Assembly (NCBI GenBank): GCA_012295275.1 | Contig: CM022670.1 | Span: 39,990,001 to 40,054,000, forward strand | Length of the DNA stretch: 64,000 nt | Direction of reading: 5' to 3' | Source: Chrysomallon squamiferum | Lineage: Eukaryota; Animalia; Mollusca | In this document: positions 589-61,847 of the stretch, piece by piece | How the letters are laid out: the number at the start of each line of letters is the position of its first letter | Numbering within the stretch: the first letter of the stretch is position 1 | Translations under genes and position numbers: made by a program | The notes under the pieces: model-generated | The model's input: the letters and a program-made list of their open reading frames with translations, nothing else | What the model was told of the DNA's origin: nothing | Database searches by the model: none

Positions 589-745
589 ATTTTTTGTATC
601 AGCTTTGTTGTGGCTCAACAAAACGCGAGCACACCAGGTAAGTTTGTGAATGTTCCAGCAAAAAACTCATTTAATAACTGTTACTATTGTTTGTTTGTTT
701 GAAGTTTAGTTATTTAATACTTTGTTTGTTTGTTTGTTTGTTTGT

Positions 746-811
<66 letters not shown>

Positions 812-1542
812 TATTTTTGTATTTATTTTATTTAATAAAATTTAATTTAATTTAAATTATTTATTTACATTACTTACTTAAATACTTATTTATTTTTATT
901 ATTAAACATTCAATTGTTGTTGTTGTTATAATCTTTTTTTGAAAAAGCATTGACCAAATACAGTTATTCAAACAGTCAACTGTTGATCCTTTACAAAAAT
1001 AATGATCGTAACGATTCTGAACTGGGATTAATGTGATTTAACGAGATAAAAAAAAAACGATCAAGTTTAATTTCTCTGCAGAGTGCGTATTAAATAGTTC
1101 TTCGTATTATTAACACGACTTGGTAAATGATTTCAGATCTACGCGAAGGTGCATGCAGATACAATTCATTTTCTGGTATCTTATGGTAACTTACGGAATT
1201 GCTTTCTCACGTCATTATTATCTAAATCTCTAACAACCATATTTGCTTTTTCCAGAAACTTCTGCTGAACAGTTTGAATGCAGCTTCAACGAAACGTGCA
1301 AAAGCGTGAATGGCAGCCTCACCGTCATCAACGGCAAAGTAATTTGTTGTTTGAATGGTCGGGTTCCGCTGGTAAACGTAATTAATGGCACCATGTCCTG
1401 CACGTGCGATCCGAAAATGACGATGACGGCAAAAGAAGCCTCGATTTTCCTTAGAATAATGATCGAGACTGAGGCGCGACGCATTGAAAACGAGATACAA
1501 GACTCGATTAGAAATATGGAACGTTTGATGAATTCTTTTTAA
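589..1542 (+). CDS. Small secreted cysteine-rich protein (5'-incomplete; family unknown)
   Basis: Phase-compatible exons with canonical splice sites: 589-637 (IFCISFVVAQQNASTP, resembles the end of a signal peptide), 1137-1175 (DLREGACRYNSFS) and 1256-1542 (ETSAEQFECSFNETCKSVNGSLTVINGKVICCLNGRVPLVNVINGTMSCTCDPK...ERLMNSF*). Several N-x-S/T sequons. AATAAA at ~1571. Start exon not identified. Confidence 0.55.
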
Positions 1543-2337: not shown

Positions 2338-2918
2338 TTAGAAAAGTAATTCTGCAAATTTTGCAATTACATAAAAATATTTCCTTTCTTCTAAGGAAAG
2401 ATGATTGGCAACCTGCTTTTCCGGGACGAAGAAATTGTGAACTACGAGTTCTCCAGAAAGCATCGTCTGTACTGCTCTTAATACGTATTTTCTACAATTG
2501 CGAATGTTCTCCTTATTCCAGAACTCGTCACTCTTATTTGGACCGTTATACCAGATACTCCACATTAATGACCGTAGGTCGTAGGTAGAAAATCGGACAG
2601 ATTTTAACTTTGAAGGGCCAGTTTGTCCTTCGATTGGAAAATACTGTCGTGTTATTCCGGTGAACCGATGCAACTGTCCTCCAATGAAAGTGGTTGGAGC
2701 GTGGGAATTCAGATCTTCTTTTGCAATATCAAAAATCATTTTTACTGTCCGCAGAATCTGCTTTCGACAAGTGTCTCCGGTGGAATCAGCAAATTTTGTT
2801 ATTTCTTTTTCGGCATTATTAAACGCCAGTCTCCATAGAAGATCTTTTTTAACATGCTCTACAATTTTCAAAACAGCAGAATGTTATTTGTTTCATAGAA
2901 AAGAAACAGAGGAAAGTA

Positions 2919-3002
<84 letters not shown>

Positions 3003-4393
3003 GAGAGAGAGAGACAGATGCACGCAAACACAAACAAACAAACCTTTCTTGTAAGCTTTCGCCACAACATGATGACCTTTGTTTTTAATCTCGACAGGGA
3101 TTTTGCTGTTTATTTCATGAGATTGTGGCCAAAGTTCTAAGTGCAGGGCTGGAACTAAGTCAACATCAATGCCAGCGAATGACACTGGAACTGTTGGCGC
3201 ACCTTCATAGCTTCGTTCACCTGTTTAACGTTGTATACAAAACCATATAATCCAACTGCAGTTAATAAAGTATGTCTAGATATCATTTAACAAATTGTTC
3301 GTTATTTTTCATACCCACAGAGAAGATGAAAGTCAACTAGCACGAAGAATGTGGTTATTAATATGAAGATTGTGAATATAAATGTAGAAATAATACATAT
3401 TTATTTTAGTTCTTGTTATTTTCTATCTTTAGAATAATATAATTTGCATATAAATCAGTGATAAAACGTATTTCAGATGCTAAATAATAATTGTTATGAT
3501 ATTATTTTTTATTGTATGGGACTTTCGTTTATGTTGTTTCAATGGTGGAAACTAACTTCTCTCCTTCTTTTGCTGCGTAATCTACTGGAAGACATGACTA
3601 GGACTAGCGACAGTATGAGTGTTATGATAATAGCAGTGGTGGGAGTAGTCAGAGTAGAAACGTTTTTGTAAAAAGGTTTATATATTAAAACAAAGAAACA
3701 TTATAAATAAATAAGTGAGTGAGTAAGTAAGTAAATAATAAAAACGATAACTTACATTGCCATTTTTCTTGAGATTTAATAATATCCTCCAATTTACTTT
3801 TGAAATGATTTCGCCATTTCTTTGCATTGAGGAATCCATTTTCGCAGACAAGAATGAAACAGAACCCAGGAGGTGCGTCGTCAAACTCTGCTTCAATTGA
3901 TCCGCTTCGCAAATCAGGGACGAAAAGACAATCAAATTCGTCTGGCTCATAAACCTGTGAATTTGATTAAAAGGAGAAGCGAGTATGTGCATTACACTAT
4001 TTCTTCACTCAACTTCACTCACATAAAACTGATTTCGAAGATTCTGTAATAAAAACATAATCTGTTTTCTTCGTGTTGTTTATTTTTTAACGTGGGTTAA
4101 TGAAAGGTATAAATAATAATGGAACATACCTTAGTATTATCAAACATGGAACCTGAGTTGAAATACTCCCACTTCCATTCTGTGTTTGAACTGAGCTTTT
4201 CTATGATATATTGTCTTAGATCTATATATTCGTTTCTTGCAAAGCTGATTTGCTGTTGAACCAGGGTCACTTCTTCATGAAAAAATTTGTTCCATTCTGA
4301 TTCAAGCACATCTAGAGGGAAATTCGCTGATTTCGTACGACTTTGTATGAAATCGTCAAGAAAAGAGGTATCTATGAGTTTCGAGCAAGACAT
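2338..4393 (-). CDS. cGAS-like receptor (cGLR) / Mab-21 family nucleotidyltransferase, ~386 aa
   Basis: Exons 4393-4130, 3954-3756, 3220-3044 and 2858-2338, all GT-AG, phases 0/1/1, 1161 nt open. The spliced protein has NSGSMFDNTK|VYEPDEFDCLF (GS motif plus E-x-D), IDVDLVPAL (third Asp), WRLAFNNAEKEI, CRKQILRTVK, FSTYDLR and HNFFVPE, in the motif order of cGAS/Mab-21 enzymes. Confidence 0.9.
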
Positions 4394-4575
4394 TTTTAGA
4401 CGAAAATTTCCAACAAATATATTAAGTTAAATATCCTGAAAAAAAAAAGAATACAAAATAGAAAGAAAAACAATAATAATTTTAGTATAATATTTTCTTT
4501 ATTTAGGTTTATAAACATTAAAACAATACAATATAATAAAATCAAATAAATAATGGAATGAACTATTATGAAATA

Positions 4576-4606
<31 letters not shown>

Positions 4607-4663
4607 GACACGAAAAAACTAAACTGCTGATGAAAAGAACGATAAAGTTAACATTTTATTTTT

Positions 4664-5227
4664 GTGTCATGGCGTGTCAAATCACCCCCCACCCCAAAAC
4701 AAAAATTTAAACCCGAGCGTCTCAGGTTTTTATGAAACTTGGTATACTTGTTGACTGGGATCCCATAGCACCAAATGTGAAATTTTAGGCCAATCGGACC
4801 AGTAACCAAAAATATTACACCCAGGATACTTTTTTATGTTTTAGTTAACATGTGGGAGATTAAATTTCAATAAAGGTCATCTCAAAGTCACGTGATCCAG
4901 AAGGTCAATTTAAGATCATAGCAAAGGTCAAAAGGTCAGTGTGCCCCAAAATTGGAATCCTTGTCATATTGCCTTTTCAACAATACCAATTTTATGAAGA
5001 TTGGCTCAGTAGTTCCTGGGATATGATTGTTCAAAAGTTGGAGGTCAATCCCATTTTTGCCAAAAATCTCAAAATTCGGGGGACCATATCTCCCACACCA
5101 CTGATCCGATTGGGCTAATATTTCAGATTTGGTGCTGTGGGATCCCAGTCAACAAGTATACCAAGTTTTATAAAAAATCTGAGACGGTCGGGTTTAACCC
5201 ATTGGGTGATTTGACACGGAATGAACC
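4664..5227. mobile_element. Non-autonomous DNA transposon (MITE), ~560 bp, with ~130-bp imperfect terminal inverted repeats
   Basis: The left arm (gtcatggcgtgtcaaatcaccc...aaacttggtatacttgttgactgggatcccatagcaccaaat...ccaatcggaccagt) is the reverse complement of the right arm (actgatccgattggg...atttggtgctgtgggatcccagtcaacaagtataccaagttt...gggtgatttgacacggaatgaacc). TTTT flanks both ends. No ORF. Confidence 0.85.
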
Positions 5228-5434
5228 TTTTCTATTTATAATTGTTAGGCTTAAATAAAATACACAGAATTGTATTACCAGTGCTAAAGTGTGGTCAGTA
5301 TGTTATAAATCACGAATACTGTTTAAAATAAATGATTAACTCTAATTTGTTGATGTTTGAAAACACTTACAATGGTGCATAAGAAAAAAAAAAATAATAA
5401 TAATAATCACACATACACTATTCGCCTTTTTTTT

Positions 5435-5635
5435 AGTTAACATTTTATTTACCTATTTACATTTGTTACACGTAAAATACACAAAATGTTGTTACATACT
5501 TAACTACATTTACCACTGCTAAAGTGTGATGTCTGTCAGTATGTTATATGTCTGTCAATATGAGTACTATTTAAAATAAATAATTAAGTGTAATCATATA
5601 AGGTATAATTTGTTGACGTTGAAAAACATTTATAA
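5435..5635. repeat. ~200-bp local duplication unit (other copies at ~4640-5370, interrupted by the MITE, and ~6775-6980)
   Basis: All three copies share aaaatacac..aa, ctaaagtgtg..tcagtatgttat and tac.(a/g)tttaaaataaat.attaa blocks. Confidence 0.7.
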
Positions 5636-5640
5636 GGGAT

Positions 5641-5674
<34 letters not shown>

Positions 5675-5749
5675 TGTTTACATATTTATGACAAGATGTT
5701 ATGAAAATGACTCATTCGCGATTTTCTAATCATTCATTATCTTTGCCGT

Positions 5750-6512
5750 CTGGCGCCCTTTTCATTTTACTGGGGAAAAAAATCAATAATTCATGGAAAC
5801 ACATAAAAAGTTTACTTGGTTATGTGAAAAATTCTTACATTGTGTTAGATGAGTGAATGCCACATAAACAGAAACATCTATTTTAAGTAGTGAAATAGCG
5901 ACAAAGAAGGAATTTAACTGTCTCTTCTGCACCAGCTGACCTATATAATAACCTTATAGTGAAAGCAGTTAGAAAATAACCACAGGGATTAAATATAATA
6001 AAATTATTTGAAAATATCTGGCAGACACAAAGTAGTCAAATGAAACAACTGAAACATATTTTAGTATACAGATAATCATACAGAAAACATCGATTAATAT
6101 TTTGAAATATATATAAATTGGCGCGCTTTTCATTATAATAAATTGGCGCGCTTTTCATTATACTGAAAAAAGACTAATAATTCGTGGAAACACTAAAGCT
6201 GCATAAAAAGTTTACTTGGTTATGTGAAAAATTCTCACATGTGTTAGATGTGTGAATGCCACATCAACAAAAACATCTATTAAATAGTGAAATAGCGACA
6301 AAGAAGAATTTACCTGTCTCTTCTGCGCCAGCTTACCTGTGTACTAACCTTATGCACATGCGCAGTTTAAAAAAAAAGAAAAGTGAAAAAAAAAAAAGAA
6401 AAAAAAAAAAAAAAAAAACTTATTAGAAAATATGTGGGAGACACAGAAAGTAATCAAATGCAATAACCGAAACTGATTTTAGTGTATTGATAATCATACG
6501 GAAAATTTCGAA
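5750..6512. repeat. Tandem duplication of a ~390-bp unit upstream of the cGLR
   Basis: Copies at ~5750-6110 and ~6143-6512 share cataaaaagtttacttggttatgtgaaaaattc, gaatgccacat, tagtgaaatagcgacaaagaag and ctgtctcttctgc. A 26-bp micro-duplication (taaattggcgcgcttttcattata x2) lies at the junction. Confidence 0.8.
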
Positions 6513-6554
6513 GAATCCATTTATCTGTACTGTAAGTCGTATCTGACTTCTAGG

Positions 6555-6613
6555 TCACGAAAGTAAACCGGAATCTGTTCAAATTTTTAAATCGAAATTA
6601 CCGGGGATTTTCC
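6555..6613. promoter_or_regulatory. Candidate immune-inducible element: NF-kB site with adjacent IRF-like and ETS motifs
   Basis: GGGGATTTTCC at 6603-6613 matches the kB consensus. GAAAGTAAAC (IRF-E-like) runs into CCGGAA (ETS core) at ~6559-6573. The cluster is ~2.2 kb 5' of the cGLR ATG. Confidence 0.45.
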
Positions 6614-6978
6614 ATTGATTCTGACATAACATTTTCGGTATGTAGATTTCTAAACATTAAAACAATAAGATATAATAAAGTTAATTAAAATAATATGGAA
6701 TAGTATAAATTATAAAAATAATAAATAAACAAATGATAATTACTGGCACAAAAAAGCCTAAACAGCAGATGAAATGATAAAGTTAAGATTTTATTTCTCT
6801 ATTTTAGTATTTATAATTGTTAGACTTTCCTAAAATACACAGAATTTTATTACATACTTAACTACATTTATCAGTGCTAAAGTGTGGTGTATGTCAATAT
6901 GTTATAATCATGAGTACTATTTAAAATAAATGATTAAGTAATCAGATACGGTGTAATTTGTTTAACTTTGAACACACT

Positions 6979-7047
<69 letters not shown>

Positions 7048-7149
7048 TAAATAAATAAATAAATAAATAAATATAATAAACAACCTGAATGCACAAAGTA
7101 TATATAAATAGAACAACCAATCTGGTAAATCAGTCATTTTTTTTATTTA

Positions 7150-7355
7150 CAGAAACTGGTTGATCACTCATTTTGTTTAAATATAAATACACAATTTGGT
7201 TGATCATTCATTTTGTTTAAATATAAATACACAATTTGGTTGATCATTCATTTTGTTTGAATGTAAATACACAAACTGGTTGATCTCTCATTTTGTTTAA
7301 ATAAAATACACAATTTGGTTGATCATTCATTTTGTTTAAATCAAAATACACAAAA
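7150..7355. repeat. 39-bp minisatellite, ~5 copies, in the 3' region of the ERICH1-like gene
   Basis: Repeated unit aaatacacaatttggttgatcattcattttgtttaaatat. Confidence 0.9.
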
Positions 7356-7384
7356 CTTATCAGTCACTTTATTCACAAAGTATC

Positions 7385-8637
7385 TTAGGTACTGTTTGAA
7401 CCTAAATACACAAATTCTGATTTGCTGCTACACTGTTCCATTTGTTTGTTTTTATCTTTCCTTCTTTTCTTTTTCAGTTTTCTTTTTTGGTTTCTTGTCA
7501 GTTCTGGATTTGCTTTTATTTTTAAATCACAACTTTTCTCCTTTAAGTTAACAAGTACGGAATTATCTTCGCTTTGTTTCTTTTGTTTTCGTCTTCTTTT
7601 CCTTTTGCGAGAACCAATCTCCTCATCAGGAGAATCTAAGAAACAAAATAAAATAAAACAAAATTAATAATAATAATAATAATAATAATACTTTAAAATT
7701 TGGAATTAAACTTTATTAAACAGTATTAAAAATACATTCTGTATGTTTTTTACATATATAATGTATTTATGTAACATCTATGAACGTTTTTAAGACTTGA
7801 AATATTGTGTATGTAGGCTAATTTGTATGAATGTATGAATGTATCTAATGTTCTTAAGAACGAATTTTTTAAGACTTGAAATATTGAATGAATGTATGAA
7901 TGTATGTATGTATGTATGTATGTATGTATGTATGTATGAATGTATGTATCTCTTAATGTTCTTAAGACTTGAAAGCACGCGTGTGTGTGTGTGTGAAGAA
8001 AATCATGCTAATCACATTTTATGTTTGTAAAATAAAACCTTCAGTTGATGAACTTGATTTTTGTAAGTTTTCTTCCGAATTGTCAACACTTTCACTGACG
8101 TTTGACGGTGGCCATTTTTCTGGAAGTGCTGCACTGTAGATTTTTCTGGTTCGTGATGAGTTGGAGGTTTCAGCTGGACATTTTATTGTTTCAATCTCGC
8201 TGTGTATATCACTATCTTCTGAATCAGAACAGCCTTTTGTTCCATATAAACGACTGAGAAGCTTGTTCTTGAACACTAAGAGAGACACACAGAGAGAAAA
8301 ACACAACATTAAACGTTTTCTTCAATTACAAAATAAGTATATGTACACTACAGTTATTGCGTACGTTATTAAACGCAGATTAAAATGAACCACACTACCA
8401 GGAAATCAAACTCTTGATTTACAACGCATCTTTAATCTTAGAGCAAGACCGTAATTAATTTTCTGGAGGTGCAGTTATTTTACCAAACTAAAGGCTAAAA
8501 CAGATTTTATGTTCAGAAAAACCTATTTCGACATTTATTAACACACTCACACATGCTCATGCACACCCGCGACTAGGATTCTTAGCTTAAAGACGTTTCG
8601 TCAGTTGATGCAAACCTTCCGTTTTATCCGTTTCCAT
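7385..8637 (-). CDS. ERICH1: ERICH1-like (N-terminal region) Lys/Arg-rich nuclear protein, ~169 aa
   Basis: Exons 8637-8616 (METDKTE), 8275-8039 (VFKNKLLSRLY...RKIYSAALP) and 7635-7385 (DSPDEEIGSRKRKRRRKQKK...LTRNQKRKLKKKRRK...EFVYLGSNST*), phases 1/1, 510 nt open. The motifs recall vertebrate ERICH1 (VFVEKVLQRLF, RRLYTASGPP, SKNKKRKLKKK). Confidence 0.65.
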
Positions 8638-8908
8638 ATTTGCACAGCGTAATAGGTTCCACCAGCACTATTCTGTCATGGAGAAAGTTAAAACAGAAAA
8701 CATAAAGTCCACTGTTCTTGTATCTTGTGCTGGAATTATCGTCATATTTCCCGGGAACAAATGAAATTGAACTTATTTACCGTTTTACAAAAAATTATGA
8801 AGGGAAATAACTCTAACTAGCGATCCCTAAGAGTTAAATCTTTTCTTGTATAAAAAGTCATGCCCACCTGAGCTCTATATGTAGAGTTGTATTTGCAATA
8901 AAAGAATT

Positions 8909-8968
<60 letters not shown>

Positions 8969-9395
8969 AAAAATAATAAATAAAATAATAAAAAAATCAT
9001 ATTCCCGGGAAAGTAAATAATATTTTATTATGCTAAATTCTGATATCATCCAAATAAAGCAAATTGCAAAATTAACAAGAGTAAATGTTAACGATGTTCA
9101 TGTATACACACTTACTCTTCTTATTATTATCAATGATATTATCATTATAATATTATTTATAATTTAATTATTTAATAATAGCAAAATATCAGAGTAAGCT
9201 ACTTCTTTACAAAATCCAAAGTACACTTACTTCTATACTTTTTATTATTATTTTTGTTATTTATGTTTTTTTGTTTTTTTTTTGTTTAATTGTTTTATCT
9301 TTTAATACAATTTTATATGTAATAATATTTTCAAAAATATTTATATCTAGTAATTGGAACTAATATATTTGTAGTCGTTATTGTAGACTCGATTG

Positions 9396-9428
<33 letters not shown>

Positions 9429-9980
9429 TTATGCCCACACATAAAATAATAAAAATACGAGAGAAAATGAAAAAATAAATCAACAAGGATTTATAAACGT
9501 GCCTATACATATATTATTATTTGTAATCACATTTCTTATATTGATAATATTTGTTTGTACTATATGCATATATGTTGATTTGAACTTCTGTAAAAGTGAT
9601 GATTATTATAATTACATTAATTACTGTTTCTAAATTAATATTATTCATCGCTACCTGGAAGCATATTCCTTTGGTTGTTTGTAAAAATATAAGCGTACAG
9701 GACTGGTTTTAAATTAAACAGTTGTGAATTCTACTCATAATGTGAACACATCTCACCATAAGAGTTAAGATCTGCAGTTTTGAGTCAAACCATCTATTTT
9801 CTTGACTAGTGTTGAAAGTATCACAGAGAGAGAGAGAAAAAGAGACATTTTCAAATAACAGAATAATTATCGACACTTCAGTATTCTGTATTTTAACAGA
9901 GGCGTTTATAATACTCCGACAAACTTGTATTAAATTAAACAACGGCAGTTCTTTAAAAAGCACAACCAGCTGATGAAAAA

Positions 9981-11026
9981 ATGGTTGCTGGAGAGAAGGT
10001 GAAGCGTTGCACATTATGTCGTAAGTTATGCCGAACACCGCCATGCAATCCATCGAAGAGAAGAAAATTTGCTAACCTAATGGTATGTGATAACGTTTTT
10101 GGCATTTCTCCAAAAGTGGTTGTAAATTCAAGATTCTGTTCTCCGTCTGCTACTAAACCGACCTATTCATCTATTAAGTCACCGAACGTTCCCCATCTAC
10201 GCAAAAAGACGTGCAGCTGGGGGCCTTGCTGGGGTCGGGCGGGTTTGGTTCGGTGTTTCGGGGAATATACAGAAAACAAGCCGTGGCAGTGAAGATTTTG
10301 CACAAAATCAAGAAAAACAAGAAGGCTCAGTTTCAGAGTTACAAGGCTGAATTAAGAATTCTGTATTTTAAAAATCCATACGTTGTGAGATCGCTAAACG
10401 CTACGCCGTTAGATCAGTACCATGATGGTCCTTGGATTGTAATGGAACTTGTTGGACCTAAGAATATGCAGCAGGTACTAAATGATGCCAACGAACATCT
10501 GGCTCAAAGCAGACGAACGAAATACGCACTGCAAATTGCACGTGCACTGCATTACGCTCACACAAACTGTGTCGTCCATCTTGATCTGAAACCCGCAAAT
10601 ATATTTGTTACGGAAAATGACGATGTCAAAGTTGGCGATTTCGGATGCTGCCAGCAGATCGATCATGAAACGGGCATTCCAAGTCTGCTGGATGAAAGAT
10701 CAGATCTGACAGGTACATTCGCTTACAGGGCACCTGAATTACTGAAGGGTGATGCTCCTACCGTTCAAGCAGACATTTATTCGTACGGTATTACCCTATG
10801 GCAAATGCTTTCCAGAGAAAACCCCTATGGTGACCAGAATCAACACATGGTGATTTTCTGTGTTGTTTCTCAGAATCTGAGGCCATATTTACCCGACACT
10901 GGCAATGACCCATTTGAGGAGCTTTATCAGAATTTGTACGTACAGTGTTGGAGTGCAGTACCAGAGAAAAGACCCACATCTGCAGACTTGATAAATATCC
11001 TGAAGTTGTGGAAACAGTATGTGTAA
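9981..11026 (+). CDS. MOS: Mos proto-oncogene Ser/Thr kinase (oocyte MAPKKK), intronless, with a -1 frame break at ~10203-10208
   Basis: The kinase ORF 10211-11026 has LGSGGFGSV, VAVK, HLDLKPANI, GDFGCCQ, GTFAYRAPELLKG and ADIYSYGITLWQM, which are Mos-type signatures. The N-terminal ORF from ATG 9981 is in another frame. One extra A in CGCAAAAAGAC joins them into ~348 aa, the typical Mos length. Confidence 0.92.
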
Positions 11027-15660: not shown

Positions 15661-16731
15661 GTTAGATTTTAATATTTTGCTTTTATTAAGTTTTGGGGTC
15701 TTTTTTCTTTTTGTATTGTCACCCCGAGGAAATTAATTATCTGTTGTTCAGATGAAAATCAGAAAACAAACGGAAAAAAAAAAAGAGTATATGATATTAT
15801 CATCTACATCAGTATATGATTTTTCCCCTTCCAACAATTACGAATTAATAAATTCAGTCACTCGTTGATTTAATGATAATCATCATAATGTGATAGTGAT
15901 ATTTTTATTATCTAAAAATCACAGTAAACTTCATTTGTCAGTGAGGTACCTTAACTTGTTTACAGGAGTCTGAGGAGATGGCTGGGAAAGTCATGGCCTT
16001 GAGTTAGTTGATAGTGTCTAAGACACTACACTGTAGTGTAGACATTAACTGAGTAAGACTAAGAGTTATTGAAAAAGTCTACATAACTAACAAACACTGA
16101 ATCACAATTTCAGTTTGACACAATGTAAGTGATTCATGTAAAACTAAAAATCATTTTTATGATGCTTAGAATAGTTTTATTTTCAAATAATATACTTGTA
16201 TCAATATTATTCTGGCATCTTTGTATAATAGCCTATACTATACTATAGGTAGTACTAGTTGAGTGGCAGTTGCAGATTGTACATACTCATAATGATAAGT
16301 AATTTCTAAATTTATACTCTTTTTGTTTTAGGTATTTTAAGTCAGGATCTTATTTTTGCACCTTATTAGTATTACTTGGTGTTTAGGTGTGGATTTTGTT
16401 TTTATTTTTATTTTGTAACACTAATAATGTGTGAACACCATCAAGGAAATTAAGATATAAAAATAATAATAAAATAATAACCCCCTCCAAAAAAAAAAAG
16501 AGATTTTATAATAATATTATTTCTGAATTTTGTCAGTTTAATGAATCATATATCTAAATAATTTTCTAAATTTTAATATAAAATGTTTGAAACAGAATCA
16601 TTAATATTGATAATTTACTACTAATAAAAAAATGATATATTCTGGTATTAATAATAACAACAAAGTATTTTAACCATGTGATATATCAAATTTTAATTTA
16701 TGTTTTTCAGTTTGTTATCAAAGGAGGAATC

Positions 16732-23010
<6,279 letters not shown>

Positions 23011-24154
23011 CACCATCACAGGATACAATCAATCTCTCACCATCTCAGGATGTAATCAATCAGTCATCTTTACAGGATGCAGTTAACTGTTCTTCATCAA
23101 CTGAGGTGACTGACAGATCGACACCTTTAAGAGATTTGCATGGTCAGTGTTCAGCAAGTAGTGGCCAGTCTATCAGAACTGTTATTGAACAGTCAACAAC
23201 AGATGCTAACACTGACCAGTCAGCACTCACAGATACAACTGACCAGTCATCATCTGTTGACCCTGTTGATCATTCGTCAGCCGTTGATGCTGTTTGTCAG
23301 TCATCTTTATCTGGAAGCACTGGGGAGACAAGTTCTATGCAGTATTATTCTGAAAATGTGAATATAGATCATTTGCATTGTCAGCTCTCATTAACTGACA
23401 ACAAACAGTGTTGTAGTCATCAAAGCAAGGAAGATATGTCTGGAGATTATAAAATGAATGATGATGACCAAAGAATGCAGACAGCGAATGGTGATTTCAG
23501 ACTGTCAAACCAGACTTTAAGAACAGATGATAGAAGTTATAAGACTGTAACTGAAACCTCAGTAGATTCAGTCTCTGGTGAAAGTGGAGTTAGGGATTCA
23601 GTTGTTGTGTCTTCTGTGAACATTTCTTCTGATGATGAAACTTCTCTGAAATCTGTGCATGCAAATTTAACAAGTTCTTCAGATTGTGTTTCTCAAGAGA
23701 GTTGTGATACACATGCCTTTTCTGAACTTTGATTTTCCAAGTGCAATTGTCAGTGAATTAGAAAGTGAGACAAAACCTTTATTTATAAAAATATTTTTTA
23801 CAACAGGGAAGCTTGAGGGATATTAAATACAGACATTTTATTGTTATAATGCTAGTAATTATGTATTATCAGTGTATTATGTATATAACTGACAAACAAA
23901 TTTAGAAATTTGGTCCTTGGTTTATTTATTAGTGACATCTCATGTTCAGCTTGTTTATTAATGTCAAAATTTATATTGTTTGTTTATATTAACAGGCGCA
24001 GGTGAACATAATGTTCCAAAATAACATGATACGTTGGAAGCAGCAAACAGATGAATATAAACAAAATACAAAGGCTCTGCATTTCAGCATTATTGACTTT
24101 CTTTACTGGGATTGTTAGTTTTAACAAATGTATGTGTAATAAAATCATGATTGT

Positions 24155-28475: not shown

Positions 28476-31400
28476 TTACTTACTATCGGAAGACTTATCG
28501 GATGATTTGTCTGAAAATTTGTCCCAGTTCTTGTCGACACTTTTATCTTTGTCTTTCTTCGAAAATATACCTTTTCTGAAAATGGAATGCTTTTCCGATT
28601 TGCCACTAGTAGTACTGCCATTGGTTTCTGGCGGAGAATATTGAATGATGTAGTTGAAAACATTTGGGGAAGACTTGTCCTCGCTTTTGTCTTTTCTGGC
28701 ATAAAGAGACAACATGTAGTTACCGTGTTTCGTGAGTTTCACAAAGAATTTCACCGTCTTGGAGTTTTGTGGCTCGCGTACCATGTTCACGTAATCTTTG
28801 GTGTCCTCGTTTGGCTCGCGCAGAAACTGATACGATATAGTCACGTTTTCCGGGACATTTAGCTCCAGCGTGCACTGATTGGAGTCTTGAAGTTTGATAA
28901 CAGGATCCTTATGCGACACCAGCCGCAATCCGTATTCTTCAAAAGACGCAGTCGGTCCCCATTTGCTCCTGGAGACACTGATCTTAGGGATATCCACTAC
29001 CTGGCTAACTTTCCCGCAGTTAATCAAGTATTTACAAGCATGCGACAACGTGTTGGATTCCGATCCTCCCTTAGGTCGTGCAAAAAGGTCGAGGCCGTAC
29101 TGGCCTGGCTGTGGTAGAACGACAGAGATTTTCAGGATTTTCGAGTCTGTGGATAAGTGCACGAAGGGGTCCAGAACGTGATCCTCCACCATGCTCATTC
29201 GCAGTTTGGCTACGAACTGCAGAGGACGCGGGATGTTGAACTTCAGTTCAAACTTGTCGTCCACCGTCAGAATGCCGGCTTTGGCAGTCTCGGCATTGTC
29301 GTTCGGATCACCGGGAACAACTTCCAGAGGGACGGCAGAAAGCCCAAAATGTCGGAAGGCCTTCTTGGGTCCCCACTCCCCTGCAGCGCAGTTGGGAAGA
29401 GGATGCATCTTCCCGACGAGCGACGAGCACTTCACCTTGAATTTGCAGGCGCATTTCAAACGGAAAAGGTGCAAAATTGGCGTTGGATTCTTCAAGGCAT
29501 CGATTGGACTCGTCGATTTTGTTTGCAAATATTTCGAAGAAGTAGTCAGCAGTGACAGGCACGTGGATGCTGAACGTGACAGTGTTCTCCACCATCGTCT
29601 GGAACACGAACCTCTCAAGGCTGGCTCCTTTGTAAGACATCTCGTGTTTTCTTTCCTTGTCGGCGAACCGAAGCTGGTAGAAGAAGACCAAGTCGTTTTC
29701 TAACTGCTCCGGTATCTTGATGCTCACTTTGACTCCTCCCTTGTCGTCTGTCTCCAGAACGGACAGTCTGCTCTGTTCGAAGCGCATCCCGTAGTGGAAG
29801 AACACAGAACGCACGAATGGAAGAGCTTCGAACTCCTCTCGCGTTATAGGGTTTTCCAGCAGCTGCCACTTTTTGTCTAACGGCCAGAACTCCTGGATGA
29901 ATTCGTCTGGGTCGGTGAGGAAGTAATGCTCGTCGTACTGGTAGCGGATCTGATCGCGTTTCTTTGGTTTGTCCTTTTCCTTGTCTTTGTTCAGAACAAG
30001 ATGTCTGAAATAAAACATGTACACCCATTAGGAAACCAGTTCTAAAACAGTTCTCAAGTTTTTAAAATATTCTTTCTTTCATTTGTCTGTTCCGTTTCAT
30101 CCATTCGTTCATCATCCATCAACCGTACAGACGTGCAACAATCCATCCATTTAACTATCATTTCAATCAGTCATTCCCTTTAATATATCTTATTAACAAA
30201 GAAAAAAACAATAATATAATATAACAAATTAAATTAAATAAATAAAATAAAATAAATAAAAATAAATAAAATAAAAATAAATAAAAATAAATAAAATTAA
30301 TAAAATAGATAAATAAATAAATCAGACGCAGTTATATCGAGATTCCCTAAAAATAAATTGGTTGCAGCTTTTAATCGACTCGCTAAAGCGTGTTGATTTG
30401 TTTAGATTTTGAAGATTTGTTAAAAATAAAATGTATTAACTCACTGCATTCGGCGTGAGCTATGAGAATACATTCCAAACAAATCATTTATAAAATTTAG
30501 AATAAACTGAAGAACGAATCAAATCATTAGGATACAGTTTAAACCATCATGAAACCGTCACAAGCAACAGTTGAAAATTAAACATGTATATATAAACATT
30601 TATTTACACAAACATAAAAATAGGCCAAACAGATAAATGACAAAACCATAACGTTTCATATTCTAAGAAAAAATGCACCTAGTAATTTTATTTAATTTTT
30701 TTTTATTTTCTGTACAAATTTAAAACAGCCAACAAAACCAAACCAAGGCTGCTGAGATATTAACACACCTGGCTCCCCAGTTACACTGAATCAACCTCCA
30801 GTCTCCGTCGATAAGTACGGCATTCCACGTGTTTTGAAAAGTGTCGTCTGTAATCTTCATACCCGGCTCATAGCCCACACTCTTAGAGTGACCCTTGATC
30901 TCCAGACAGTGCAGACCACAGTAACTGTCAACAAATAAAATAAATAAGTCACAAGTCATTCAGTAAATTAATAAAAAAAAAAAACAGTAAGTAACATACT
31001 TTTTTTGCGTCATCATCGTTTCATGATCATAGCTGCAATAACGATCTTGATACTGTTAAACAGTTCATAAAGTGTACTAATAAATTTTAATGAGGATCAA
31101 ATTGATTTGTTTTTTTTACCTGCACAGTCGCATGAAAAGAACGTGATAGGTTTCCGTGCCGTACTTGATACCCCTCAGTAATCCCATGGGCGTGTCTTCA
31201 TCAATATCATCGTCAAACTCGATCACATTGAGATCTTTCACCGTTATCCATCGATATATCGCTCTAGAACAAGAACAATTGTAAAAAAAAAAATGTCTGT
31301 TATTACATTTTTTAATTTTTTTTTTTTTTTTTTTTGTTAAATGTTTGTTAAGTGTGAGATGATATCAAAATATATTTTGTTAATTCTTATTTTAGTCATT

Positions 31401-55900: not shown

Positions 55901-58900
55901 TAATATCACTATATATAACATATACGTTAACATCACTGACTATACTTTAATAGCGCTGTCTAAACTTTATATCAGTGTTGATACATTGATATCACTATAT
56001 ACATTAATACACACACACACACAGACATATCACATTACATTACTGAATCATATGAAAACCACTTGTACATTTATTTAGTCAAAGGCTGTAGTTGATTTAA
56101 ATTTTTAAAAAGGGGCTAGATAAACATTAATATTAACAAATTTCAGTATTTCCTAATTTTTAATGAACAGTAAATAAAACAGTTTAAACGTTTATTAAAT
56201 TTTTAACATTTTTGGCGTTTCTGAAGTGTACTTTTAAATCTCAATTATACAGCTTAATAATTATTATTCTAAAATTATGTAAGCTTTTTAAAAAGGAACG
56301 CAGAAGATACAAGGGCGGGCCTTTGTGTTTTTATTTTTTTATTTTTACAATTGTCTTCCTGACTGGAACAGCTCCGAGACATATAGTGAAGCAAAGATGC
56401 TGTGGAGCATGTTCTATTTGTCTAGTTGTTCCGTTTATTTGGATGTCGATTGTTCAAACACTCAGAGGAGACAGAGGGAACAGATTCGGCTCCGTGGTGT
56501 TGACGCCATATTCATAAACTTCACTGCCCGTTTCAACTCGTTTAAACAGACTGCACCAGTTACCAATACAAAACATCAGTATGTTTGTGATTCTTCTATA
56601 ACTACAAGATCACTGTTACCAATAAAACATCAGTACGTTTGTGCTTATTCAGTAACTACAAAATCACTGTTATCGATACTGTCAGTTTGTCAGTTATGAA
56701 ACATCAGTACGTTTGTACGTCTTCAGTAACTACAAAATCATTGTTACCGATACTGTCAGTTTGTCAGTTATGAAACATCAGTACGTTTGTGCTTCTTCAA
56801 AAACTAGAAAATCACCGAAGCATTGAAGTATTTGGAATGGGTTTTTAACTGGGTTTTTTTTTTTTTTTTTATCACATTCTTACGAAACGAAGGAACCGAC
56901 AGAGAATATATATCAGTTTAACAAGTCATGTGTAAAATGTATCCGTTTATGAATCAGATATCCGTTTCAGTCTGTTATCGAATATACGTGTCACGTAGTG
57001 TCAGATTAAAAATCTGCCGAACCGGCAGAAGAATTCGTTATAAAGGAAAAGATAAACAATTGTTTACTCTTTCAGCTGAAATATGCGTCTTTGTTAGAAC
57101 CAGTTAAAGGACAGTTCCTTCTATTTTAACATTCGCTATTATTTTGTTTACATCTTTCTTTGAAAGATTTCAAGCACAATAAATTGCTTATTTTGGAAAC
57201 ACGTTCAAGTTCATTAAACTTGAACAACAACATAGACAACAAAACTAAAAACTAAAAAAAAACAACTAAAAACTAAAAAAAAAAAAAAAAAAAAAATACT
57301 GTTTTACGATTATTTGTGTGAATTTGTTAACTCTATACATTAAATGATTCATTAAAGCAGACTTTGAACAACACATTAAAGCCAGGAACAACGAAGAGAA
57401 ATAATTATTTAAAGAAGCATTATCCAGACTTTGAAACGATTCGCACTGCTGACTTAATGGCAAACCATTATGGTCTAATTCATTCCCTTCTTGTTACTAC
57501 TTAAGTGTGTCCGTATTGACCAGTCAAGTTGTGTCCGAGGGTGTCCACATTGTCCAGGCAAGGTGTGTCTGTTGTGTAAAACCGCCCAGCCTTATCAGAA
57601 GCACATATTACCGGGTGGATGCAGTGTTTTCAAACAGTAATAATGGGTGCGTTAGGCCTTATCCTAAGACTTATATTACACATTATGGCTTTTTCGTCTT
57701 ATCGTAAGCTACTTCAAGTTCTGTTTATAGTCTCCAAAAGAACTATAATTTTGGCTTTGCTGTGTGAAGTAATTCTTGTTATTAAACACCAATACTATTT
57801 TCTTTCGTAAATCTGTAGCTGTTATGATTCATAATCAGAAAATGGTAACAAATATATAAACACTGTGTGTGTGGTGTGCGAATGTGTATATGGTCATACC
57901 TAAGTATGTATACACATAATCATCTTTATCTTTATATATGTACGTATGTTTGAATAATATTCGTATTTATACATATACCTTTAATTGTGTGTGTGTGTGT
58001 GTGTGTGTGTGTGATTTTGTACATTTGTTTCTGTCAGAGGATAACAAATGGTTAATATATTTTTATTACGCGAGATGTCAACAGATAAACAGAAAGCAAA
58101 ATGTGCCCTTCCTCGTTTTAAACTTATTCAGACTGCTGTAACAATAAACTTGTTTCACTGTAGCTTCATAACATAGCACGATCCAACTTAGGTTTCTGGA
58201 TTGTTTATTAAGATGTTGTTTATAAGGATGCTGAAGACGTTTATTTTATATTTATAAGAAATGAAAGTTAAATCTTACAGAAAGACATTTTATCAGACTA
58301 TAATTAGGAAAGTTATGTATATAAACAAGTACCAAACCCTTTATCCGCCAAACTGGTTTTCGAACAGTCTTCTATATTGTGAACCAAGTTTCAATATAAA
58401 ACAAGCTACGAAGTAAAGAACTGAACTGTATTTGACATATTCAAATCAAAACAGTTCTACAGCCTGTTTTCTTGAAGCAGGATAAATGATCTGGTGGTAC
58501 CTGTATTATACTTACAATGACACAACCACCCACCCAAACATTACCTTTCCTTTCTATGTGTCATCTGATATAAAAACAGGTGAAAATATTTTAAATAAGC
58601 AACAAAATCAAACTGGTACTGAATAAATTTTCAGACGAGAACAGTCTAATATTGGGTAGATGGATAAGATAAGCTTTACTTACAATGTGCGGAGGGAAAT
58701 GATGCTTATCCAGTTTTCTTTGGTACCTTCTCTGAAGCAGCTGGGCCTCTATGGGTCCTTTGATGTGCAAAGCATCCACGTCGATTCCATGCACCTTGTG
58801 ATAGTTCGGGTCTTGGGCGTAGTTTGAAGACGGCACCGTGAACGCTCTTTTTATGTGCATAGCTTGGTAATCAAGCTGAGGTCCTGGCACATCGTCTGGC

Positions 58901-59277
58901 AGACGTCTTTCCTGGGTTTTGGAAGAATTATTCCTGAACTGGGACTGCATGCGAACTGCCCTTTTGATGTCCACCGACTGATCGTCGATCCGAGCCCCAC
59001 CGATCCTGGGCACATGCGTCTGACAGTAGATTTCGCGATCATTGGCATCCACCTGATTTGACCAGTAATTCTTCAGGGTCAGAAAGAGCCCGCACGCGTA
59101 GCAGCTGAAGCAGGTTTTGTGAAAGACGACGTCGTTCACGGGACAGAAACGTTCGCTTTGGTAAACGGTGTCCTGACACCTCTGACACTTCTGTGAATTC
59201 GCTCCGTAAGGTACGAAAAGTGAAGACAGACTTCGACCACCTCTTTCTATCGAAGCCTGGTCGTCCGTAGCGGCCAT
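28476..59277 (-). CDS. Hil: Hillarin (LIM + coiled-coil + transglutaminase-like/KY-Cyk3 domain), ~1050 aa; single extra bases in exons 3 and 8
   Basis: Exons 59277-58684 (CQRC...HKTCFSCYAC...IYCQTH LIM domain), 40673-40452 and 34937-34706 (coiled coil), 33647-33447, 31925-31843 (TDLEKAR), 31263-31120 (AIYRWIT...TPMGLLRGIKYGTETYHVLF), 30924-30769 (NTWNAVLIDGDWRLIQCNWGAR) and 30004-28476 (YDEHYFLTDPDEFIQEFWP...). All GT-AG and phase-consistent after removing 1 nt at ~34760 and 1 nt at ~29465. Confidence 0.9.
33676..33845. repeat. (TAT)n microsatellite
   Basis: Long imperfect TAT run. Other (AAT/TAT)n runs at 6980-7041, 8912-8955, 25577-25642 and 36405-36489. Confidence 0.95.
52322..52635. mobile_element. 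pogo/Tigger-type MITE resembling Tigger4 (Zombi/MER46)
   Basis: Left end TA|CAGGTTGGAAATCCGTTATCCGAAA; right end TTTCGGATAAAGAATTCTGAGCTTG|TG (degenerate 25-bp TIR, TA target site with the right copy mutated). Subterminal aaatccgaaa repeats at both ends. Confidence 0.8.
55775..56010. repeat. ~22-bp minisatellite
   Basis: About 10 degenerate copies of tacattaatatcactgtcta. Confidence 0.8.
56560..56815. repeat. ~53-75-bp tandem repeat, 4 copies
   Basis: Repeated aaacatcagtacgtttgtg...cagtaactacaaaatcactgttaccgatactgtcagtttgtcagttatg. Confidence 0.85.
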
Positions 59278-61847
59278 TTGTCCGAAAGAAGTCAAACTTC
59301 AAAACAAAAACAAAATTAAAAAACTTCTTCTCCAAGACGACGACACAACAGTCGCGAACTCCGTGCTCCTCTCTCTACCTTACCTGTGTCTCGCTCTCAA
59401 CAGCGACTGCCAGAACAAGATCGACGTTTACAGAACTCGGAACTGAAAACATTCATTCTCGGCACGCCGCAATCCCTGGTGAAATTATGACGATGAAAAT
59501 AGTTTGTGCGGACGGGTCTCGTTACCTGGTCACTCTCGCTAAGTGTCCGGCATGTCCGCGGAAAGAATCTGATTTGTTGTTAAAACCACGGAACGTTCGT
59601 TCTCAACTCCTAGTTAACTGCTGAACTCCCTTCCATACGCACCACTAATCAACGATCCGCTTCGAATCATAATTCTGCACGAGTGTCTTTCCTTCTTTAG
59701 GTTATATTCTCACCTGAATAAACGTCGGACGAGTTTAAGTGTGATAAAAAAGGGGTGACAGGATGCCTACGTCTGACAATCTTTATCGCGGGTCTATTGA
59801 CTCATATTTTAAGTTTGAGGCGGCCCTGAGAAACAATCGATTTCTTTTTTATTTTTCCTGTTTTTTTTTTTTTTTTTTTTTTCCCTATGATATTTTCGCT
59901 TCAAACGTAATTAACTCTACATTTTATATCAGAATGTCTATTTCTATGCATCACGTGAATTAGTTGACAGATATGCGGGTCCCAACTGAAGGGAAAAAAG
60001 TGGTCGTATTTTATGTCGTCATAACAACAAGAGTAATGATCTGTATCTTTTAAAACATGTATCTTTGATGTGTAACGTTGAAACAATTAATATTCAGTAA
60101 CAGTCGACAGTGTTCCTAATATAGTAAATATTAAATATACATTTCTAAACAATATGTTACCGTACATTTTTAGTTCGGGATGTTGTTACTGATTTAATTT
60201 TAACATTCTGAAACACATCTGTCGCAGCAATTACATATGTGGAATATTTATGATTCACTTCACATATGCATTATTGGATTCTAGTACTGATTACACGGAA
60301 AGAAACTCAGTTTTAGTTATTACTAATTTCATATATTATTTTAATCTGGAAATGAATGTGTAAAAAGGAATATAGACTGGTATATATATATATATATAGA
60401 TCAATCCCTCTGTCTGTCTATCTACCTTTCTGTCTACCTGTCTTAGCTATCTCCTTGCTTACCACCCCGTACCTATCTACCTGTCTATCAATATCAACAA
60501 TGATCTTTGCCTATTTTGGTCCGTTTGTCGGTTTTTCTGACTGTCGTTTTTATTTGATCACTCGAGAGAACTTGATGCGCAACAAAGACTATGACGAAGG
60601 ACGATTAAGCTGTGAACTATTTTGCAAACATTACTAAATTTTAACACAATATTGTTTTTCCGGATTTCAGTTTATTCTAAGATTGACTTGTGGCGCATCA
60701 CGCATCTGTTTATTACGTCTGTGAACCAGTCTTATTTGACGAGGCGTTCTAGAAAATTCTGAAACTATTTGTAAAATTCGGAATCTGAAGGACTTAAACT
60801 GAACTGAAAAGAGATTTACAATGCATTTTTGTTTCTTAAAAAATGCTATTTACAGATGGAAAAAAAAATAATAATAATAAAAAATAAATAAATAAATAAA
60901 TAAAATAAAATAAAAAATAAAAAATAAATAAAAAATAAATAAAATAAAATAATAAAAAAATAAATAAAGGAAATAAAGAATATTTAATTTCAAGGAAAAA
61001 AACGTTTCTAATTATAGATTATTTGCAAACTTAGCTAATCAAAAATAGTCAAGAAATAAGTTATAAATCAAGGCAAAATGTTTACCGATGTGTTTTTGAT
61101 GAGAATAACAATTACTAAGTGAAGTCAGTAAACTAATACTGTTTTACACTTTGCTACAATGTGTATTTTACTTTTAATTAACAGCGCTTTAATGCAATAC
61201 AAGATTAACAAGTACGTTTTATTTAATTCTAAATTTTGCTACCTAGCTGTCCTCTATTGTTATCAGAATGTTATCTGTGTAATGATATCATCTAGTATCT
61301 ATATTAAATTTAACATTAGCCCTTTTTAATTTTACATAGTGTAATACTCTATTTATAGCACAGCTATATTCTAATGTGTATAGAATCATATATTACAGGT
61401 GCTGTAATATATTGTGACATTTACTTCCAGGATTTAATCTTAACATTTTATTCAATATTACGTACACTATATTAATTCGTGAAGTACCCGATTTTCATAT
61501 CTGTGACATACTGTTGTAATTATTTCAGCGTATCGGTATAATTGTTATACAGTATTAATCCTTGTGTAATATTATGTTTACTACACTGGTCTGCACTATT
61601 GGGTATTGATATACGTAAACTGTTCATTATTCCCACCAGGGTTATTGACCCTGTCATTTAATGTGAAGCAATATTTATGCGTTCTTACATGATCTTACTT
61701 AGATTATCATAAACTTAGTGTATGATTTCATTTCTGATCATCTCTCAGAACATACAATAAAATTTGGTTCAGCTGACTGTAGCTCTTTGGCTAGATTTAA
61801 GCTCTGGGCGTAATAGGTCTCAGGTAATATATAATCATATATGTGTG

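What the first reader, a model, noticed from the sequence alone, without database searches (positions are those of the whole stretch)
2338..4393. Intact invertebrate cGAS-like receptor with unusual architecture
Seen: a complete spliced 386-aa ORF that the ORF track shows only as fragments, keeping the GS motif and the E-x-D...D metal-binding triad. It has no Cys/His Zn ribbon between WRLAF..EKEI and CRK (only FADSTGDT). A 39-aa stretch (NSHAPTTF...KLKSVR) lies before the F-S-x-Y motif, where cGAS has under 10 aa. The SSYHxK motif reads STYDLR. Known: animal cGLRs are expanded in molluscs and cnidarians, sense dsRNA or dsDNA, and make diverse cyclic dinucleotides for STING. Inference: this is an active sensor whose ligand or second messenger may be new.
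Basis: partly seen in the sequence, partly recalled or inferred. Interest (0 to 1): 0.8.

Follow-up and report, generated by a model that had tools for sequence, protein, structure and literature searches.

The report
Fast-evolving snail-type cGAS-like immune receptor
This is a real, spliced gene for a cGAS-like receptor that belongs with a group of snail and abalone proteins; it likely senses foreign DNA and makes a small alarm nucleotide, and its copies differ in the exons but hardly in the introns, which likely reflects an arms race with pathogens.

Summary
The gene is real: four coding exons on the minus strand, 386 aa, with G81-S82 and E94/D96/D175. It has three coding introns, not four. 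RNA contigs show introns 2 and 3 and the donor of intron 1. It is a cGLR that groups with gastropod proteins (27-36% identity); its nearest solved relative is oyster Cv-cGLR1 (dsDNA, 2'3'-cUA). The three 'unusual' features are not peculiar to it. A missing Zn ribbon is normal outside vertebrate-type cGAS. The insertion (a predicted helix) is in 19 of 19 relatives, and STYDLR is the group's variant of the motif. Six members are already in the published cGLR catalogue; none of the six is in its screen table. This copy is near-neutral (pI 6.4). It has Ala/Asn where all 19 relatives have Ser and Ser/Thr in the nucleotide pocket. It lacks 9 residues that another sample's copy has. Another sample differs at 12 of 369 exon bases and 0 of 394 intron bases (10 change the protein), with changes clustered in the insertion. 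Verdict: new member of a known kind, from an untested subgroup; activity unproven.

The parts
4130..4393 (-). Coding exon 1 (aa 1-88): N-terminal helices, spine helix (about aa 35-70, inferred from the relative's model), G81-S82 loop at 4148-4153
   Evidence: an RNA contig fits 4128-4263 and then leaves the genome
3955..4129 (-). Intron 1, 175 nt, GT-AG, phase 0
   Evidence: donor supported by RNA; acceptor supported only by homology
3756..3954 (-). Coding exon 2 (aa 89-155): E94 (3937-3939), D96 (3931-3933); lacks 27 nt at 3845 relative to DNA run X4
3221..3755 (-). Intron 2, 535 nt, GT-AG
   Evidence: RNA joint in X3, matching loose ends in X1 and X2
3044..3220 (-). Coding exon 3 (aa 155-214): third catalytic acid D175 (3159-3161)
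   Evidence: (Mab-21 E 3e-4)
2859..3043 (-). Intron 3, 185 nt, GT-AG, holds a GA microsatellite
   Evidence: RNA contigs of X1 and X2 skip it (table 8)
2338..2858 (-). Coding exon 4 (aa 214-386 + stop): R223, A225, N227, K231, K253, Y306, R309 and the C-terminal helical lobe; no Zn ribbon
2593..2709 (-). Subgroup-wide insertion (aa 264-302) with a predicted 16-residue helix (aa 271-286); hot spot of amino-acid differences between copies
4394..4437 (-). Likely 5' UTR of exon 1 with an in-frame stop (4427-4429) and a T-rich CAG acceptor ending at 4436; upstream exon not located
   Evidence: an RNA contig fits 4204-4437 and then runs on for 488 nt elsewhere

Best explanation
The gene encodes a single-domain cGAS-like receptor of a gastropod-type subgroup that likely rests inactive in the cytosol, is likely switched on by long double-stranded nucleic acid (dsDNA most likely), and is predicted to make a 2'3'-linked cyclic dinucleotide for STING. 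Shown here: the spliced, transcribed gene; the GS loop and E94/D96/D175 triad; grouping with gastropod cGLRs; a cGAS-type fold for exon 4 and for a full-length relative; no Zn ribbon; a helical insertion; exon-limited variation between copies. Inferred: the ligand binds along the spine helix, two metals on the triad join two NTPs, Y306 and R223 hold the bases, and K253 and R309 the phosphates (by alignment to cGAS; roles partly recalled). My single best guess for the product is 2'3'-cUA, as in Cv-cGLR1 (about 1 in 3), with 2'3'-cGAMP next. The insertion replaces the loop that carries human K427/K428 (DNA site C), so it likely remodels a secondary ligand or protein surface, not the active site. 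The excess of exon differences likely reflects diversifying selection by pathogens or their antagonists.
For: 8GJW = Cv-cGLR1 is the best PDB sequence hit for exons 2, 3 and 4 (E 0.009, 0.15, 6e-6). It is also best for the subgroup profile (E 1e-54, against 4e-29 for the next) and for the model of relative P0007 (Z 33.6, rmsd 2.7, 338 aligned; mouse cGAS Z 31.3). Cv-cGLR1 and Cg-cGLR1 are dsDNA-activated and make 2'3'-cUA (PMC9980059 Results; identity of 8GJW). The exon 4 model matches cGAS at Z 13.0. The triad is complete in the window and in 17 of 19 relatives. Pomacea, H. rufescens and Batillaria, which carry this subgroup, each have one STING; three gastropods with no cGLR have none (Table S5 rows). 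K427/K428 are site C (PMC9896928 passages). Within two single DNA contigs, 12 of 369 exon bases and 0 of 394 intron bases differ (Fisher p 1.5e-4), and 10 of the 12 change the protein.
Against: pI is 6.44 and net charge -3.6, whereas the published nucleic-acid sensors exceed pI 8.5 (different calculators), and the spine region has 4 basic to 5 acidic residues. The window copy lacks 9 residues and a basic residue (L123) next to the core. A225 and N227 depart from Ser and Ser/Thr in 19 of 19 relatives; S378 is named among the cGAMP-contacting residues in human cGAS (PMC10855445 passage). Only 15 of 140 screened cGLRs were taken forward as active, and many appeared inactive. Overall pN/pS of the listed differences is 1.1-1.4, not significantly above 1. 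Cv-cGLR1 could not be placed in my tree, so nearest kinship rests on scores. STING in this genome could not be searched.
Confidence: 0.55

Rival explanations
1. An active cGLR that senses something other than nucleic acid (for example a pathogen protein or a basic ligand) through its near-neutral groove and variable inserted helix, and may make a different messenger because of its changed pocket.
For: pI 6.44; acidic cGLRs were proposed to sense non-nucleic-acid ligands (PMC9980059). Nine of 10 listed protein-changing differences in one RNA contig fall in the insertion, which is 117 of 280 covered bases (p 0.002; worst case 0.04 given 3 unlisted differences). A225/N227 are seen in none of 19 relatives.
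Against: 14 of 19 relatives with the same insertion have core pI of 8.5 or more, so the insertion does not go with loss of charge. The nearest tested relatives sense dsDNA. The insertion itself is basic (4 K/R, 1 D/E).
Confidence: 0.2
2. The window's copy is a weakened or dead allele (or carries an assembly error) of an otherwise working gene, because of the 9-residue deletion and pocket changes.
For: Run X4 shows only the longer form at 3845 (depth 150 of 150). The segment is 8 residues against 18-32 in 19 of 19 relatives. The window has the longest end branch inside the subgroup (1.45).
Against: The deletion is in frame, and there are no stops or broken splice sites. The catalytic triad is unchanged in all listed variants. 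Relaxed selection would not make exons diverge more than introns. One X4 contig over 2762-2913 is identical to the window, so A225/N227 are not private to the window.
Confidence: 0.17
3. The exon-only divergence comes from gene conversion with a near-identical paralogue or a cDNA copy, or from mixed haplotypes in the assembly or in the contigs, not from selection.
For: Synonymous sites also exceed introns (2 of 79 against 0 of 394, p 0.03). X4 holds contigs at several depths (40, 57, 75), so more than two versions are present. All evidence is from contigs, and the tables were cut.
Against: Exon and intron were compared inside the same single contigs (X4 records 18 and 20). No second copy lies in the 64-kb window. 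RNA contigs of another study share many of the X4 differences.
Confidence: 0.25

Closest known systems
Cv-cGLR1 (Crassostrea virginica, XP_022304999.1, PDB 8GJW) and Cg-cGLR1 (C. gigas)
   Same: Best sequence and fold match among solved structures; SGS loop, DEFD, PPG-x-C, IDVDLVPA and DLLWR blocks; no Zn ribbon.
   Different: They lack the insertion (profile 526-554 against chain 270-272) and have Ser/Thr where the window has A225/N227. They are shown to be dsDNA-activated and to make 2'3'-cUA; the window protein is untested.
Gastropod cGLR subgroup (Haliotis, Nucella, Babylonia, Batillaria, Pomacea; e.g. XP_067678631.1, XP_046353511.1, KAG5700644.1)
   Same: 27-36% identity over the whole length, same insertion (44-51 residues against 52), same T/S-[YF]-x-x-R motif and C-terminal ERxY/F helix. 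Six members are in Table S1 of PMC9980059.
   Different: Many carry long N-terminal extensions with repeated CxxC...H..C units, which the window copy lacks. The window copy is more acidic than 18 of 19, has the Ala/Asn pocket and the 9-aa deletion, and sits on a long branch with unresolved position.
Vertebrate cGAS
   Same: Fold, GS loop, triad, R376/K384/K414/Y436 equivalents (numbering partly recalled).
   Different: cGAS has the Zn ribbon and a 19-residue link where this gene has 52; 22% identity to a fish cGAS.
Insect cGLRs (Tc-cGLR 7LT2, Drosophila cGLR1) and coral Sp-cGLR1 (8GJY)
   Same: No Zn ribbon, same fold (Z 27 for relative P0007).
   Different: Lower scores than Cv-cGLR1; they sense dsRNA and make other products.

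Membership tests
cGLR (criteria of PMC9980059) | Active-site motif h[QT]GS X8-20 [DE]h[DE]h X50-90 h[DE]h | tested here: met
   G81-S82, 11 residues, E94-F-D96, 78 residues, V-D175-L. The residue before GS is Ser, not Q/T, as in Cv-cGLR1 and other catalogued members, so the written motif is met with that accepted variant.
cGLR (criteria of PMC9980059) | Homology over both the NTase core and the C-terminal helical bundle | tested here: met
   27-36% identity over 340-376 columns to 19 relatives; 10 of 10 relatives scanned pass the Mab-21 cut-off and 8 of 10 also hit Mab-21_C; the spliced protein scores 303.8 bits on their profile.
cGLR (criteria of PMC9980059) | Predicted structural homology to cGLR/CD-NTase enzymes | tested here: met
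   Exon 4 model matches cGAS at Z 13.0, rmsd 3.6, 138 aligned (Foldseek E only 0.02). The full-length test used relative P0007: Z 33.6 to 8GJW. The whole window protein was not folded.
cGLR (functional sense) | Ligand-activated synthesis of a cyclic dinucleotide read by STING | not testable with these tools
   Needs biochemistry; no genome was held to look for STING.
Vertebrate-type cGAS | Zn ribbon between the EK helix and CRK | tested here: not met
   14 residues with 1 Cys and no His, against 4 Cys and 2 His in a fish cGAS.
Oyster Cv-/Cg-cGLR1 type (dsDNA, 2'3'-cUA) | Orthology or one clade with Cv-cGLR1 | tested here: inconclusive
   Best by profile and fold score, but Cv-cGLR1 was not available as a stored protein and is not in the tree.
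Nucleic-acid-sensing cGLRs | High pI (>8.5) and a basic ligand groove | tested here: not met
   pI 6.44, charge -3.6 (another calculator than the paper's); surface charge was not mapped on a model. This is a published trend, not a strict rule.
Developmental MAB21L1/2 | High sequence conservation with MAB21L1 | tested here: not met
   The subgroup profile scores E 2e-7 on MAB21L1 against 1e-54 on Cv-cGLR1.

The most novel reading that the evidence does not exclude
Gastropods have their own cGLR branch in which the cGAS site-C loop became a helix that serves as a pathogen-contact surface. This member, with a near-neutral groove, an Ala/Asn nucleotide pocket and strongly diverged alleles, detects a non-nucleic-acid ligand or makes a messenger not yet seen in animals. 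It may signal without STING, since Haliotis rubra keeps this subgroup while reportedly lacking STING (PMC11103948 passages).
Probability: 0.15. Interest if true: 0.75.

Novelty: new member of a known kind. Interest (0 to 1): 0.33.

Why it matters
More than 3,000 cGLRs are catalogued, so one more is ordinary. The value is narrower. It points to a gastropod subgroup with an extra helix absent from the solved cGLR and cGAS structures aligned here, and with no tested member that I found. It also supplies natural alleles that differ in the spine helix, the insertion and a 9-residue segment, so the rules for ligand and product choice can be tested with few constructs. It bears on antiviral immunity in farmed abalone and other snails, where STING is reported to be patchy.

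Tried and rejected
Word-index search with exon 4 among longer proteins found nothing among 106 candidates; the exhaustive search then found 14. The ESM Atlas gave CDC45-type clusters at low recognition, which I rejected as noise against all other evidence. Exon 1 alone had no Pfam or PDB hit. Two profile searches did not return the oyster proteins, so the tree has no bivalve rows and only two distant outgroups; I draw no order of events from it. No genome was held: copy number and STING are unknown; only one copy lies in the window. The upstream exon was not found in 4100-10300. RNA contigs at 88% likeness did not bridge intron 1. A paper search for the KKH loop found nothing. Two searches for a paper tying the S378/S380 positions to uridine choice gave no direct support, so that link to CdnE is recalled only and not used. 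Three look-ups in earlier scan findings returned nothing. Rejected readings: chance ORF, MAB21L developmental gene, and Zn-ribbon loss as a novelty.

Full report
Observation. The region holds a minus-strand gene with coding exons 4393-4130, 3954-3756, 3220-3044 and 2858-2338, giving 386 aa and a stop, with three GT-AG introns. An open frame is weak evidence, since 1060 nearby GT-AG combinations are open, so I tested the model two ways. Against a profile built from 19 relatives only, it ranks 1 of 1060 (303.8 bits, median 218), with the next few within about 1 bit. In RNA contigs from three samples of one study, intron 3 is skipped in X1 and X2, and intron 2 is joined in X3 with matching loose ends in X1 and X2. 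An X1 contig leaves the genome at the intron 1 donor and runs on for 225 nt; that acceptor was not seen directly. These contigs are about 89-97% identical to the window, so they come from other alleles or close copies. A fourth is likely in the 5' UTR: an RNA contig stops at a T-rich CAG ending at 4436, upstream of an in-frame stop.

What it is. Single exons give weak Pfam hits below cut-off (Mab-21 E 3e-4, Mab-21_C E 0.05). An exhaustive search with exon 4 found 14 proteins, and further searches added more. I aligned 19 near full-length relatives. Sixteen are named, all from gastropods (Haliotis, Nucella, Babylonia, Batillaria); two are unnamed and one was not looked up. Left out were four fragments and P0024; P0026 and P0027 entered only the tree. 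Identity to the window protein is 27-36%. In a 23-row tree the window groups with these proteins (97/98) on a long branch of unresolved position, with only two distant outgroups. The host is therefore likely a gastropod mollusc; this is inference. Among solved structures, 8GJW is the best hit for three of four exons, for the subgroup profile (E 1e-54, next 4e-29) and for a model of relative P0007 (pLDDT 85; Z 33.6). 8GJW is Cv-cGLR1, which with Cg-cGLR1 is dsDNA-activated and makes 2'3'-cUA (PMC9980059, Results parts 1-2 read).

The three claimed oddities. The Zn ribbon is absent in insect cGLRs and MB21D2 (PMC8410604, passages), in Cv-cGLR1 and in 19 of 19 relatives, so it is not unusual. The insertion is real: 52 residues between K253 and Y306, against 19 in a fish cGAS and a matching gap in Cv-cGLR1. 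But 19 of 19 relatives have 44-51 residues there, and both models place one amphipathic-looking helix in it (aa 271-286 of the window; 301-315 of P0007). By position it replaces the loop holding human K427/K428, DNA site C (PMC9896928, passages; the numbering of the flanking residues is partly recalled). STYDLR keeps the aromatic residue (Y in 12, F in 7 relatives) and the basic residue (R in 19 of 19); the middle position varies. Six subgroup members from Haliotis, Pomacea and Batillaria are in the published catalogue (Table S1 rows). None of those six accessions and none of eight gastropod genus names searched is in the preprint's screen table. I saw only the preprint; the journal version screened somewhat more proteins (recalled), and one large supplementary PDF could not be read. 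Paper searches for molluscan or gastropod cGLRs (listings) showed no biochemical study of this subgroup.

First, the protein is near-neutral (pI 6.44, charge -3.6), while 14 of 19 relatives reach 8.5 or more and published nucleic-acid sensors exceed 8.5. Second, A225 and N227 replace Ser (19 of 19) and Ser/Thr (19 of 19) in the strand after R223; S378, the first of these in human cGAS, is listed as a cGAMP contact (PMC10855445, passage). Third, DNA run X4 carries 27 more bases at 3845, in frame and without a stop by my hand reading, at full depth; the window has 8 residues in that segment against 18-32 in relatives. The window copy may thus be a short allele or an assembly error. Fourth, variation is confined to exons. 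In two single X4 contigs that span exon and intron, 12 of 369 exon bases and 0 of 394 intron bases differ (p 1.5e-4), and 10 of 12 change the protein. Neighbouring transcribed stretches differ by about 1-2% in X1 and X2, against 11% in exon 1. Changes cluster in the spine region (aa 57-77) and the insertion (9 of 10 listed protein-changing differences in one contig; p 0.002, worst case 0.04). Against this, the difference tables were cut (40 of 88 and 40 of 79 rows shown), pN/pS of the listed differences is 1.1-1.4 and not above neutral, synonymous sites also exceed introns (p 0.03), and a paralogue or gene conversion cannot be excluded.

Mechanism. Most likely it works like Cv-cGLR1 and cGAS: inactive until long double-stranded nucleic acid binds along the spine helix, then making a 2'3'-linked cyclic dinucleotide with two metals on E94/D96/D175 for STING (confidence 0.55; product uncertain, 2'3'-cUA the best single guess). 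All steps after gene structure, motifs and fold are inferred. STING accompanies this subgroup in three gastropods of the published table, but is reported missing in H. rubra, H. midae and H. laevigata from protein-database searches (PMC11103948, passages); H. rubra keeps the subgroup. That may be an annotation gap. Rivals are a sensor of a non-nucleic-acid ligand (0.2) and a weakened allele (0.17); the rival on gene conversion (0.25) concerns only the cause of the variation.

Verdict. A new member of a known family, in a catalogued but apparently untested gastropod subgroup. The changed pocket, low charge and exon-limited diversity make it a fair candidate for a biochemical screen. Interest 0.33; novel case probability 0.15, worth 0.75 if true.

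Noticed in passing
P0002, P0015, P0016, P0017, P0019, P0020 (relatives): Many gastropod members carry N-terminal tandem repeats of a CPxC...L..H.KC unit, up to about ten copies, with Pfam zinc-finger or zinc-ribbon hits. These could be extra nucleic-acid-binding or protein-binding modules; the window copy lacks them.
   Followed up: no
window 589-638 and 1256-1542 (+): Two likely exons of a small gene lying tail to tail with the cGLR: a hydrophobic, signal-like start and a Cys-rich, Asn-rich domain with no Pfam hit of note.
   Followed up: partly
window 4667-5224: A 560-nt element with long inverted arms (77 nt at 92%, plus 25- and 21-nt pairs) just upstream of the gene and highly repeated in contigs; it looks like a MITE.
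   Followed up: partly
window 10178-11023 (+): Intronless protein kinase ORF (Pkinase E 9e-47); it resembles Mos (recalled).
   Followed up: partly
window 16636-23729 (+): Exons of a membralin gene (PF09746 on 17504-17890).
   Followed up: partly
window 28479-30027 and 58594-59298 (-): KY-like Ig domains in two overlapping frames and a LIM domain, possibly one long hillarin-like gene (name recalled); the frame change near 29500-29700 was not examined.
   Followed up: partly
window 2341-2883, run X4: Run X4 holds versions of the gene at depths near 40, 57 and 75, so more than two haplotypes or a close paralogue are present in that sample.
   Followed up: partly
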